From the NCBI GenBank assembly GCA_000165345.1, contig CM000430.1, positions 544,001 through 608,000 of the forward strand: 64,000 nt of DNA, read 5' to 3'. This document shows positions 20,411-22,669 of this stretch, in pieces. The translations under genes were made by a program, and so were the position numbers. Numbering within the stretch: the stretch's first letter is position 1; every line of letters starts with the position of its first letter. The notes beneath the pieces are model-generated. The model was not told the origin of the DNA. It saw only the letters and a program-made list of their open reading frames with translations, and did not search any database.

Positions 20411-21319
20411 TGACTCCCCGACCGACCGTCAAAGAATTAACAAAGGCTAAACTAGGGTATTAAAAGAGTTGAATACCTTTGTCAGTGCCCGTCTCTAGCC
20501 ACAACAGTTAGGAATCCAACTTACTCAATTTATATTGCTCCGTGTCTACGTTTTGAGAGACAAACACTCTCTCGAACTTTAGTCAACTCTAACTCTCAAG
20601 TAGCTTCTGACTGTTCTTTTCTTATTGCAACAGCCACTGCATTATTCGAGGGCCTATGCACTTCTTTTCGTGCTTAAAAATTTGAATATACTTGCAAATT
20701 TTAGTTCGCAAAATTAGACTCAAGGTTTACCGCCATCGACGCGCCTTCAGTGCCTAGACCCGCCTTGATTTGAATTAACACGTAAATGTTGATATTAATT
20801 TCAAATTGTTAATACCGCAATAGACGCAAATAGAAGATGGACATTAATTTCTCGAGAATAAATATGAGTCAACTTAGCTAGAATAATAGTACTTAAGCAC
20901 ACTAGGAGGTGAGGTATTCACAGCTTAATACGAGCTATTTTTCATTGCAATTATTTGGGAATTTTATTCTGGAAAGTATTGCATGCATACAATACCTTTA
21001 ATGGTGCAAGAATTTTTTTACTAGATGATATTCAATGTTTGGATTCTGTCGATATTTTTGTGAGAATAATTCTTGTTAAGCTATCCAAATTAATATATGC
21101 GAACATATTAATTCGTATTAATTACTTGCCTTGTTAGACGACTGAATATGCGTAAAATAGCTATTTTCAACCCTTCGAGATTCTTTGACTTGGAAAATAC
21201 AGTTTCTGTTTTTAAATATGGCTCTACTATACGCTCTAATGTTGTAAGTTTTGAACCTTTTATATCTTGATTTTGTCATTTATTGTAAAATCCACTCCAA
21301 TCAGGCTTTTAACACAAGA

Positions 21320-22669
21320 ATGCATGACTTCATTGTAGTGATTGATGGAGGTTTAGAAAAAGCTATAAAATGGCACCAAATGATGATGACTGATTATCCA
21401 TATCACTATTCTAGGATTTCCATATTTGGCCCTAAATATATATCAAAATTTCAGAGGTTCTCAAAACTGTGTCCCATATTTTACAATTCGTGCGTTATCG
21501 CCAACGAAAAAAAGGCAAGTTAATTTTAAGTAAATATGATCGTTAAATATATTTAACTATATTAATTTAGGTAATTAAATACGGCGTAATTTCAAAGGAC
21601 GATTTGGCCAATGCACTCACTAATTGGACGTCACCATTTGTTTTGAATAGATTTCAAAAAATGGTAAGTTAATATTATCATGACCCATGTTTGATAGGCT
21701 GTTTTCAAAGCAATTCGACTCTAGATTTTCCCAGTAGGAGTCATAGATACCTATTTACAGTCATTAATTTTACAATGCGATGCACAAACAGCAAGGCTTT
21801 TTTTACTAAGTTTATGTGAAGATGATATATTTGACAGAATTGAATGCGACCATAATCTAGAAAATTCATCAATCAATTTTAAAAATCAGGAAAGAAAAGT
21901 TTCACTGCTAGAATTTCTACGTAAAATTGTAAACTCTTCATACGCAGGTGACATACGCTTCTTATTTAATGACAACAGTATAAAATTATCTGAAAATGAA
22001 TTATATGATTCATTACCTTTTTTAACGGCTAGATACCTCCCCTTTATTATTAATTACTTCCAGAATAATAAATCCGGATTTGCAATAGAAGGTGCTAACT
22101 TAAGTACTTTAAATGAACTTTACAAATTAGCAAAATCAATTACCGACAGAATGGCATTCAATTTAATGAAAAACCCGATGTCTGGAATGAATAGCGAGTT
22201 TTGTGTTTCTGAAGATTGGAACTTGTTTATAAAATTATTTTTCAATGAAAAGATAACGCTTAAGGTACGTGTAATGAAATTTTTATTACTATTTATTGCC
22301 TTTAGATAAATCCAAGCAGAGAATGGAGAGCTAATGAATTTTTACAGCTTCCAAACGAGTTTAAAAGTAGAGCAAGCAGAATAGCTGCAAGAAAAAGACT
22401 TTTGAAACTACTACCAATTAATATATTATTTAGTAAATACATTTATTCTTTACACCATTCCGCCTTGCCTTGGAGCCCTAATGTTATTGATGAAACTATA
22501 AGAAGATATAATTTTAAGTGTTCTTTGTTGAGCGTCTTAAAAAATATATTATCTAATTTTGGAAGAATCGTAAGTTACTCATTACTTTGAAAATGATTTT
22601 TTAATTTCTAATATTTAGACCTTCTATATTAAATATAAGCTAAACCAAACAGTAAAACATCTAGATTAA
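21320..22669 (+). CDS. Multi-exon gene of unknown function (about 368 aa), not represented as one ORF in the track
   Basis: Reconstructed by eye as 5 coding exons, all in phase 0: 21320..21514, 21571..21663, 21761..22264, 22306..22569, 22619..22669 (TAA). Donors are AAG|GCAAGT (GC-AG), ATG|GTAAGT, AAG|GTACGT and ATC|GTAAGT; acceptors are tttag, tttacag, cctttag and atatttag. Introns are 56, 97, 41 and 49 nt. Every exon is open with no internal stop and joins ORF-track pieces 21251..21523 and 22402..22590. The 5' end is uncertain; a possible upstream micro-exon around 21218 could not be brought into frame. Confidence 0.45.

What the first reader, a model, noticed from the sequence alone, without database searches (positions are those of the whole stretch)
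21218..22669. Five-exon gene invisible to the ORF track, with a GC-AG intron and a 41-nt intron; product unidentified
Four introns of 56, 97, 41 and 49 nt, all phase 0, join five stop-free exons into a product of about 368 aa that I could not assign to a family. The first intron uses the textbook minor GC donor AAG|GCAAGT. The 41-nt intron is near the lower size limit for spliceosomal introns. This is the most intron-dense gene in the window, which is otherwise largely intronless. Its 5' end is unresolved: an in-frame TTG-to-ATG stretch and a possible micro-exon ATGGCTCTACTATACGCTCTAATGTT|GTAAGT lie at about 21218.
Basis: seen in the sequence. Interest (0 to 1): 0.55.

Follow-up and report, generated by a model that had tools for sequence, protein, structure and literature searches.

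The report
Cryptosporidium Tam41 gene, six exons

Summary
The window is Cryptosporidium parvum chromosome 2. Between an MTPAP-like gene and an SMC gene lies the ortholog of Tam41/Mmp37 (Pfam PF09139, E 2.9e-25; S. pombe Tam41 structure 6ig2, E 1e-17; the model of the C. felis ortholog hits only Tam41 structures).

Three are supported as drawn by nine-species comparison:
- the 56-nt GC-AG intron;
- the 41-nt intron;
- the 49-nt last intron.

Two points are wrong:
- Intron 2 ends at 21724, not 21760, so it is 61 nt, not 97. The 12 codons in between are conserved coding sequence.
- The 5' end is a 96-nt exon starting at ATG 21148, in a different frame from the proposed "micro-exon", followed by a 61-nt intron.

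The gene therefore has six exons, five phase-0 introns and a 417-aa product.

The GC donor (AAG|GCAAGT) is fixed in six species and is GT at the same position in C. felis, C. muris and C. ryanae. The curated IOWA-ATCC model (CPATCC_000648, 403 aa) already has the 5' exon, the GC-AG intron and the last micro-exon. It uses an 83-nt version of the 41-nt intron, and only RNA reads can settle that.

The gene and family are already known; what this adds is a corrected gene model.

The parts
21148..21243 (+). Exon 1 (96 nt): MRKIAIFNPSRFFDLENTVSVFKYGSTIRSNV. It carries the nucleotidyltransferase hG[GS] motif (YGS).
   Evidence: It starts at the first ATG after an in-frame stop. The ATG and the coding frame are conserved in 7 species while the upstream sequence diverges. 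Substitutions by codon position are 21/20/54. The Pfam and PDB alignments start here. It is also present in CPATCC_000648.
21244..21304 (+).
   Evidence: Donor GTAAG[TC] and acceptor YAG are conserved in 7 species, with lengths of 55-67 nt. The same position is used in C. muris.
21305..21514 (+). Exon 2 (210 nt): AFNTRMHDFIVVID...FYNSCVIANEKK.
   Evidence: Stop-free. The last 7 codons (VIANEKK, 21494-21514) have no indels across species and align with residues present in all Tam41 family members.
21515..21570 (+). Intron B (56 nt), the GC-AG intron: AAG|GCAAGT...TTTAG, phase 0.
   Evidence: GCAAGT is fixed in C. parvum, hominis, meleagridis, chipmunk genotype I, ubiquitum and canis. At the same position C. 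felis has GTAGGT, C. muris GTATGC and C. ryanae GTAAGT. The length varies from 56 to 93 nt, with many indels. The junction is used in the curated model CPATCC_000648.
21571..21663 (+). Exon 3 (93 nt): VIKYGVISKDDLANALTNWTSPFVLNRFQKM. It holds the CTP-binding Lys/Arg residues (K105, R129, K132).
   Evidence: K105, Y106, R129 and K132 are invariant in 125 of 125 family members.
21664..21724 (+). Intron C (61 nt, GTAAGT..CTAG, phase 0).
Evidence: The acceptor at 21724 is conserved in all 9 species.
21725..22264 (+). Exon 4 (540 nt). It begins with IFPVGVIDTYLQ (21725-21760) and contains the SYAGDIR motif.
   Evidence: The 36-nt stretch has no indels and codon-position substitutions of 11/9/24. 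It aligns without gaps to ...QKPVKIVTMNEDITLR... of animal TAMM41.
22265..22305 (+).
   Evidence: It is 41, 42 or 43 nt in the seven aligned species and 62-63 nt in C. muris and C. ryanae, with the acceptor at the same codon in all. Retaining it would shift the frame in C. parvum. Not settled: see the alternative acceptor at 22346-22347.
22306..22569 (+). Exon 5 (264 nt): INPSREWRANEFLQLPNEFKSRASRIAARKRLL...NILSNFGRI.
   Evidence: The first 42 nt have no indels, substitutions of 10/8/20 and 13 synonymous codon changes. F325, L328 and P329 are invariant, including in the gregarine Polyplicarium. In the C. felis model this stretch is a strand plus a helix with block pLDDT of 86-91.
22346..22347 (+). 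Alternative in-frame acceptor AG (ttttacAG|CTTCC). CPATCC_000648 and the C. hominis 30976 and C. tyzzeri models use it, giving an 83-nt intron and a protein 14 aa shorter.
   Evidence: The AG is present in all species because it is the end of a Gln/Lys codon. Whether it is used in vivo cannot be told here.
22570..22618 (+).
   Evidence: Donor and acceptor are conserved in all 9 species, with lengths of 47-56 nt in the seven aligned ones. Many public models read through it to ...GRIVSYSLL*.
22619..22669 (+). Exon 6 (51 nt including the TAA stop): TFYIKYKLNQTVKHLD*.
   Evidence: The motif [TNM][FYS]Y.[KNV]YK[LI] is conserved in 9 species, with 18 synonymous against 8 non-synonymous codon changes. 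It aligns with the family C-terminal motif KSxxYxxxK. It is present in CPATCC_000648 and in the C. felis and C. andersoni models.
16922..20410 (-). Upstream neighbour, transcribed divergently: an MTPAP-like nucleotidyltransferase (1162 aa).
   Evidence: Gene order is the same in all Cryptosporidium loci fetched.
22716..26765 (-). Downstream neighbour, transcribed convergently: an SMC-family ATPase (1349 aa). Its stop codon lies 46 nt from the Tam41 stop.

Best explanation
The region 21148-22669 (+) is the Cryptosporidium parvum ortholog of Tam41/Mmp37/TAMM41, the peripheral-membrane nucleotidyltransferase that converts CTP and phosphatidic acid into CDP-diacylglycerol.

Gene structure. It has six exons and five short phase-0 introns of 61, 56, 61, 41 and 49 nt, and encodes 417 aa. 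The second intron is a U2-type GC-AG intron. A T-to-C change at donor position +2 arose after the split from C. felis and has been kept since, always with an otherwise perfect donor (AAG|GCAAGT).

Protein. It has the Tam41 NTase domain, the winged-helix domain and a basic C-terminal helix. Part of that helix is encoded by the 51-nt last exon.

Inferred, not shown here. The protein sits on the mitosome inner membrane and supplies CDP-DAG for phosphatidylglycerol and cardiolipin synthesis. Cryptosporidium has a PLD-type cardiolipin synthase and lacks the prokaryote-type CDS.
For: Identity:
- Pfam Tam41_Mmp37 scores 89.8 bits against a cut-off of 24.
- S. pombe Tam41 (6ig2) matches at E 1.3e-17 with the single sequence. 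With the genus profile it matches at 2.3e-32, and Firmicutes Tam41 (7ecd) at 3.9e-21.
- The AlphaFold model of the C. felis ortholog has pTM 0.78. Its only significant PDB matches are the Tam41 structures 7ecd, 6ig2 and 6ig4 (probability 1.00, target-normalised TM 0.59-0.66).
- YGS, D40, WH, HY, N93, KYG, W121, R129, K132, SYxGDxR and Y237 are all conserved. K105, R129 and K132 correspond to the human CTP-binding residues K109, R133 and K136 (PMC8935507).

Gene structure:
- All five donor and acceptor pairs sit at the same codons in nine species.
- Introns carry indels and lengths that are not multiples of three. Every disputed coding segment is indel-free and changes mostly at third codon positions.
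- The spliced product aligns without gaps with animal, fungal and gregarine Tam41 across the first three junctions, and its last exon matches the family's C-terminal motif.
- The curated model CPATCC_000648 agrees at four of the five introns. The paper behind that annotation states that its introns are RNA-seq supported (PMC8744675).

Context:
- C. parvum, C. hominis and C. muris have CLS_pld (PMC3378450).
- A prokaryote-type CDS is not found in C. parvum (PMC7018664).
Against: - No transcript data could be reached, so every junction rests on comparative evidence plus one curated annotation.
- That annotation (403 aa) uses an 83-nt intron in place of the 41-nt one.
- The Asp equivalent to yeast D220 is Ala in C. 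parvum and Ser or Asn in other Cryptosporidium. D220A abolishes the yeast enzyme's activity (PMC6888875). The Pro equivalent to human P137 is Met. Catalytic competence is therefore assumed, not shown. The Firmicutes enzyme, reported to synthesise CDP-DAG (PMC11646218), has His at the Asp position.
- There is no recognisable N-terminal presequence: the protein starts right at the conserved domain. Localisation to the mitosome is inference.
Confidence: 0.85

Rival explanations
1. One reading: five exons starting at ATG 21320, a 97-nt second intron (21664-21760) and a 368-aa product.
For: It is stop-free and all introns are phase 0. Its acceptor TACAG at 21756-21760 looks good in C. parvum. RFQKM|SLILQ can be aligned to S. 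pombe RFQKPVVILK.
Against: That AG is absent in C. canis and C. felis, while the acceptor at 21724 is conserved in all nine species. The 36 nt it would remove evolve as coding sequence and are needed for gap-free alignment with the family. Starting at ATG 21320 would delete the YGS nucleotidyltransferase motif, which is encoded by a conserved upstream exon.
Confidence: 0.03
2. The curated IOWA-ATCC model is right at intron D: the intron is 83 nt (22265-22347) and the protein is 403 aa. The 41-nt intron is not used, or is a minor isoform (alternative 3' splice sites 42 nt apart, both in frame).
For: CPATCC_000648 (P0009) has this junction. The annotation paper says its introns are RNA-seq supported (PMC8744675). 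That model also carries the non-canonical GC-AG intron, which suggests it was built from read evidence. An intron of 41 nt is short.
Against: The 14 codons removed (INPSREWRANEFLQ) have no indels in seven species and substitutions of 10/8/20 by codon position. They are recognisably conserved in C. muris, C. ryanae and a gregarine, with F325 invariant. They fall in a confidently modelled strand and helix. The upstream acceptor sits at the same codon in all nine species, while the 41-43 nt segment itself diverges with indels. Independent annotations of C. hominis, C. meleagridis, C. felis, C. muris and C. ryanae use the short intron.
Confidence: 0.2
3. The canonical GT donor at 21494 (TGC|GTTATC), used in several public C. 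parvum, C. hominis and C. meleagridis models, is the real donor and the GC-AG intron is an illusion.
For: It is in frame and gives a stop-free product. It appears in P0001, P0002, P0003, P0012 and P0013.
Against: That GT exists only in the three closest species. The other four aligned species have AT there (TGTATT). It would delete 7 residues that every Tam41 family member has between YYN and IKYGV. The GC position is a GT donor in C. felis, C. muris and C. ryanae. The curated CPATCC model uses the GC donor.
Confidence: 0.04
4. The protein is a Tam41 homolog that no longer makes CDP-DAG. It would be a pseudoenzyme, or an enzyme with changed chemistry, kept for a non-catalytic role in mitosome membrane or protein-import maintenance.
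For: The position of yeast D220 (zebrafish D121) is Asp in 118 of 125 other family members but Ala, Ser or Asn in every Cryptosporidium. The position of human P137 is Pro in 123 of 125 others but Met, Val or Thr in Cryptosporidium. Yeast D220A abolishes activity, and zebrafish D121A still rescues a developmental phenotype, so a non-enzymatic role has precedent (PMC6888875).
Against: All other invariant and CTP-binding residues are kept. Firmicutes Tam41, reported to synthesise CDP-DAG, has His at the D220 position (PMC11646218). Cryptosporidium keeps a cardiolipin synthase, which needs a CDP-DAG-derived substrate (PMC3378450).
Confidence: 0.15

Closest known systems
Tam41 / Mmp37 / TAMM41, the mitochondrial phosphatidate cytidylyltransferase (Pfam PF09139; structures 6ig2 and 6ig4 from S. 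pombe, 7ecd from a Firmicutes bacterium)
   Same: It matches the Pfam profile far above the cut-off. It has the same NTase plus winged-helix fold. The YGS, D, WH, HY, KYG, R..K and SYxGDxR motifs are all present. The C-terminal KSxxYxxxK-like basic helix is present.
   Different: - It is about 25% identical to animal and fungal members.
- It carries two lineage-specific insertions (roughly residues 165-190 and 255-320), partly shared with a gregarine.
- There is no evident presequence.
- The Asp equivalent to yeast D220 is Ala, and the Pro equivalent to human P137 is Met.
GenBank model CPATCC_000648 (QOY42957.1, 'Mitochondrial matrix Mmp37', C. parvum IOWA-ATCC, 403 aa)
   Same: It is 100% identical over all shared residues. 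It has the same first exon, the same GC-AG intron, the same acceptor at 21724 and the same last micro-exon.
   Different: It uses the acceptor at 22347 instead of 22305, so it lacks INPSREWRANEFLQ. The 417-aa product proposed here is not in the 15-billion-protein collection as an exact sequence.
U2-type GC-AG introns (the common non-canonical class, generally around 1% of introns in eukaryotes; own knowledge)
   Same: It has a GC donor with an otherwise perfect consensus (AAG|GCAAGT) and a normal YAG acceptor. Orthologous introns in sister species carry GT.
   Different: Nothing unusual. It is not a U12-type intron, because there is no [AG]TATCCTT donor box.

Membership tests
Tam41/Mmp37 (PF09139) | Profile HMM score above Pfam's gathering threshold | tested here: met
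   89.8 bits against a cut-off of 24, E 2.9e-25, profile positions 14-218 of 322. The genus profile against PDB Tam41 gives E 2.3e-32.
Tam41/Mmp37 (PF09139) | NTase domain plus winged-helix domain fold, as in 6ig2 and 7ecd | tested here: met
   Tested on the C. felis ortholog (51% identical), because spliced sequences could not be submitted. The model has pLDDT 72 and pTM 0.78. The top five PDB hits are all Tam41 (probability 1.00, TMt 0.59-0.66), and the next hits are generic NTases at E > 0.02.
Tam41/Mmp37 (PF09139) | Conserved NTase and CTP-binding residues: YGS, the Asp on strand 2, KYG, R..K (human K109, R133, K136) and SYxGDxR | tested here: met
   Y24-G25-S26, D40, K105-Y106-G107, R129, K132, Y206, G208, D209 and R211 are all present. 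These columns are 92-100% conserved among 125 other members. Residue roles are taken from PMC8935507.
Tam41/Mmp37 (PF09139) | Asp equivalent to yeast D220 (zebrafish D121), needed for activity of the yeast enzyme | tested here: not met
   It is Ala117 in C. parvum and Ala, Ser or Asn throughout Cryptosporidium, against Asp in 118 of 125 other members. Firmicutes Tam41 has His there, so this is not a universal requirement.
Tam41/Mmp37 (PF09139) | C-terminal positively charged amphipathic helix that binds the membrane | tested here: inconclusive
   The basic stretch RASRIAARKRLLKLL and the C-terminal ...NFGRITFYIKYKL align with the family motif SSxxQxxKxxxTAGxxKSxxYxxxK. The C. felis model has a long helix at 371-412. 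Membrane binding itself was not tested.
Tam41/Mmp37 (PF09139) | [quoted passage not shown] | not testable with these tools
   This needs an enzyme assay, yeast complementation and localisation. No clear presequence is seen.
U2-type GC-AG intron | GC at donor +1/+2, AG acceptor, strong consensus at the other donor positions, and in-frame joining of conserved exons | tested here: met
   AAG|GCAAGT...TTTAG, phase 0. It is fixed in six species, with GT at the same site in three outgroup species. The joined protein is collinear with the family.
U2-type GC-AG intron | Removal from the mRNA in vivo | not testable with these tools
   There is only indirect support: the junction is in the curated CPATCC_000648 model, and the paper behind that annotation says its introns are RNA-seq supported (PMC8744675).
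U12-type (minor spliceosome) intron | Donor box [AG]TATCCTT and a TCCTTAAC-like branch site | tested here: not met
   The donor is GCAAGTTA, and the 56-nt intron contains no TCCTTAAC-like element.

The most novel reading that the evidence does not exclude
Cryptosporidium and its gregarine relatives keep Tam41, although a review states that it is 'absent in protozoans' and missing from Toxoplasma, Eimeria and Plasmodium. The reading would be that, after losing the apicoplast and its prokaryote-type CDS, Cryptosporidium depends on Tam41 as the mitosome's own source of CDP-DAG. The Cryptosporidium enzyme has also replaced two near-universal residues (the equivalents of yeast D220 and human P137), which would mean altered catalysis or a partly non-catalytic role. 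In addition, intron D may use two in-frame acceptors, giving isoforms that differ by 14 aa.
Probability: 0.2. Interest if true: 0.45.

Novelty: already known. Interest (0 to 1): 0.22.

Why it matters
Mainly as annotation hygiene. At least six different protein models of this one gene are in public databases (121, 128, 380, 386, 400 and 403 aa). None equals the 417-aa product that comparative evidence favours.

It is also a clean worked example of how a GC-AG donor and a tiny terminal exon defeat gene predictors in a compact, intron-poor genome.

Biologically it shows that the reduced mitosome of Cryptosporidium keeps a dedicated CDP-DAG synthase gene alongside a cardiolipin synthase. That bears on what this organelle's membrane is made of. 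It also corrects a statement in the review literature that protozoans lack Tam41.

Tried and rejected
I used the correctly annotated C. felis ortholog P0005 as a proxy.
- Scans of JGI metagenome contigs for the two alternative spliced junctions of intron D found nothing. No transcript evidence was obtained.
- The supplement of the IOWA-ATCC paper is not held. The Isaza 2015 supplement gives only a dN/dS of 0.30 for cgd2_2740 against CHUDEA2_2740. That this ID refers to the present gene is inferred from the '2g2740' locus tags.
- No paper in the library discusses Cryptosporidium Tam41/Mmp37, or GC-AG introns in Cryptosporidium.
- An Rfam scan of 20300-22800 gave only sub-threshold chance hits, so there is no intron-hosted snoRNA. 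The window has no tRNA genes.
- Other donors inside intron B are excluded. GTTAAT at 21519 shifts the frame into a stop, and GTAAAT at 21531 lies beyond the in-frame TAA at 21521.
- I checked whether the ORFs 39013-39882 and 39983-40675 (-) are two exons of one gene. No donor is present at the junction, so they look like separate genes.
- Tamura 2013, Jiao 2019 and Kimura 2022 could not be read, so the structural role of yeast D220 is not known to me.
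Full report
**What the window is.** GC content is about 32% and most of the window is covered by long uninterrupted ORFs. The spliced product of the flagged region is 100% identical, over all shared residues, to C. parvum IOWA-ATCC protein QOY42957.1 (CPATCC_000648). It is 96% identical to the C. hominis ortholog. The flanking genes are an MTPAP-like gene on the minus strand upstream and an SMC ATPase on the minus strand downstream. They are in the same order in every Cryptosporidium locus fetched. The window is therefore Cryptosporidium parvum chromosome 2.

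**Checking the observation.** All are phase 0, and they give a stop-free 368-aa product from ATG 21320. No single ORF in the region exceeds 90 aa.

**What the product is.**
- I added an upstream exon (see below) and scanned the protein against Pfam. It hits Tam41_Mmp37 (PF09139, 'Phosphatidate cytidylyltransferase, mitochondrial') at 89.8 bits against a cut-off of 24.
- The S. pombe Tam41 crystal-structure sequence matches at E 1.3e-17.
- A profile of Cryptosporidium orthologs reaches E 2.3e-32 against S. pombe Tam41 and 3.9e-21 against Firmicutes Tam41.
- An AlphaFold model of the C. felis ortholog has pLDDT 72 and pTM 0.78. I used it because the tools refuse spliced sequences. Its only significant PDB matches are Tam41 structures.
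- Public databases already name the gene 'Mitochondrial matrix Mmp37' or 'phosphatidate cytidylyltransferase, mitochondrial' in C. parvum, C. hominis, C. meleagridis, C. felis, C. tyzzeri, C. muris and C. andersoni.

So 'product unidentified' is resolved, and the gene is not new.

**Gene structure by comparison.** I fetched the orthologous loci of C. hominis, C. meleagridis, chipmunk genotype I, C. ubiquitum, C. canis, C. felis, C. muris and C. ryanae. I aligned or mapped them against the window.

1. *5' end.*
It encodes MRKIAIFNPSRFFDLENTVSVFKYGSTIRSNV, which includes the YGS nucleotidyltransferase motif.
   - The start codon, donor and acceptor are conserved in all seven aligned species, while the upstream sequence diverges.

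2. *GC-AG intron.*
   - AAG|GCAAGT is identical in six species.
   - At exactly the same position C. felis has AAG|GTAGGT, C. muris AAG|GTATGC and C. ryanae AAG|GTAAGT.
   - The canonical GT donor 21 nt upstream (TGC|GTTATC), used by several public models, is not GT in the other four aligned species.
   - That donor would delete seven residues that every Tam41 has between YYN and IKYGV.
   - Other GT dinucleotides inside the intron give a frameshift or include a stop.
The change to GC arose after the split from C. felis and is always accompanied by a perfect remaining consensus, as is typical for GC-AG introns (own knowledge).

3. *Intron 2.*
- The acceptor conserved in all nine species is ..YAG|AT[TC]T.. 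at 21724.
   - The 36 nt between them (IFPVGVIDTYLQ) have no indels and substitutions of 11/9/24 by codon position.
   - They make the protein align without gaps to ...QKPVKIVTMNEDITLR... of animal TAMM41.
   - The intron is therefore 61 nt, not 97.

4. *The 41-nt intron.*
   - The donor GTA[CT]G and the acceptor YAG sit at the same codons in all nine species.
   - The length is 41, 42 or 43 nt in the intestinal species and 62-63 nt in C. muris and C. ryanae.
   - The curated CPATCC_000648 model instead uses an acceptor 42 nt further on (an 83-nt intron) and drops INPSREWRANEFLQ.
   - Those 14 codons are indel-free, with substitutions of 10/8/20 and 13 synonymous codon changes. They are recognisable in C. 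muris (NNPVWIKKTFES), C. ryanae (FKPNLEWKINEFEK) and a gregarine (..EELFET).
   - They lie in a confidently modelled strand and helix.
   - I favour the 41-nt intron at about 0.8. Only reads can decide, and both acceptors may be used.

5. *Last intron and exon.*
   - GTAAGT..YAG is conserved in all nine species.
   - The 51-nt last exon encodes [TNM][FYS]Y.[KNV]YK[LI], with 18 synonymous against 8 non-synonymous codon changes.
   - It aligns with the family-wide C-terminal motif KSxxYxxxK.
   - Most public models read through this intron and end in ..GRIVSYSLL*.

**Resulting model.** The exons are 21148-21243, 21305-21514, 21571-21663, 21725-22264, 22306-22569 and 22619-22669, giving 417 aa. 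Projecting these boundaries onto the other six aligned species gives stop-free reading frames of 412-416 aa. The C. hominis, C. meleagridis and chipmunk extracts ended just before the stop codon. This exact protein is not in the 15-billion-sequence collection, where models of 121, 128, 380, 386, 400 and 403 aa coexist.

**How it most likely works.**
- Tam41 is a peripheral inner-membrane nucleotidyltransferase. It transfers CMP from CTP to phosphatidic acid, giving CDP-DAG for phosphatidylglycerol and cardiolipin synthesis. It has an NTase domain, a winged-helix domain and a basic C-terminal membrane-binding helix (PMC7018664).
- The C. parvum protein keeps the family-invariant residues, including the equivalents of the human CTP-binding residues K109, R133 and K136 (PMC8935507).
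- Cryptosporidium has a PLD-type cardiolipin synthase (PMC3378450). The prokaryote-type CDS is not found in C. parvum, and in Toxoplasma that apicoplast enzyme appears to supply CDP-DAG for mitochondrial PG synthesis (PMC7018664).
- The inference is that Tam41 provides CDP-DAG inside the mitosome. Activity and localisation are not shown here.

**An unexplained detail.**
- The position of yeast D220 (zebrafish D121) is Asp in 118 of 125 other family members, but Ala, Ser or Asn in every Cryptosporidium. D220A abolishes the yeast enzyme's activity (PMC6888875).
- The position of human P137 is Pro in 123 of 125 others, but Met, Val or Thr in Cryptosporidium.
- The gregarine Polyplicarium keeps both Asp and Pro.
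- Firmicutes Tam41, reported to synthesise CDP-DAG, has His at the Asp position (PMC11646218). The substitution therefore need not inactivate the enzyme.

**Comparison with the literature.** A 2020 review states that TAMM41 is 'absent in protozoans' and lists none for Toxoplasma, Eimeria and Plasmodium (PMC7018664). The Cryptosporidium genus and a gregarine clearly have it. I found no paper that discusses this.

**Verdict.**
- The gene, its family and even its GC-AG intron are already in public annotation.
- Interest is low to modest.

Noticed in passing
window 21595-21597 (codon for A117) and 21661-21663 (codon for M133): Every Cryptosporidium Tam41 has replaced the Asp equivalent to yeast D220 (Asp in 118 of 125 other family members) with Ala, Ser or Asn. 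They have also replaced the Pro equivalent to human P137 (Pro in 123 of 125) with Met, Val or Thr. A gregarine ortholog keeps both. Firmicutes Tam41 has His at the Asp position.
   Followed up: partly
window 21148-22669; proteins P0001, P0002, P0009-P0014: [quoted passage not shown] In C. canis and C. ubiquitum the gene is split into two separate 'genes'. None equals the 417-aa product.
   Followed up: yes
window 22670-22715: The Tam41 stop codon (22667-22669) and the stop of the convergent SMC gene (22716-22718, minus strand) are only 46 nt apart. The two 3' UTRs must be extremely short or overlap.
   Followed up: no
protein residues about 165-190 and 255-320 (window about 21818-21895 and 22088-22323): There are two lineage-specific insertions relative to animal and fungal Tam41. 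The second is partly shared with the gregarine Polyplicarium and is predicted to be helical with high confidence in the C. felis model.
   Followed up: partly
L006 (chipmunk genotype I) and protein P0006 (Logan contig, unnamed Cryptosporidium): In species where intron D is 42 nt, it is in frame and stop-free. Automated annotation read straight through it, inserting 14 spurious residues (..LNVRVMKFLIIIYYLQ..).
   Followed up: yes
window 39883-39982 (minus strand): Two adjacent minus-strand ORFs (39983-40675 and 39013-39882) looked like a possible split gene. There is no splice donor at the junction and an ATG follows at about 39854, so they are probably separate genes.
   Followed up: partly
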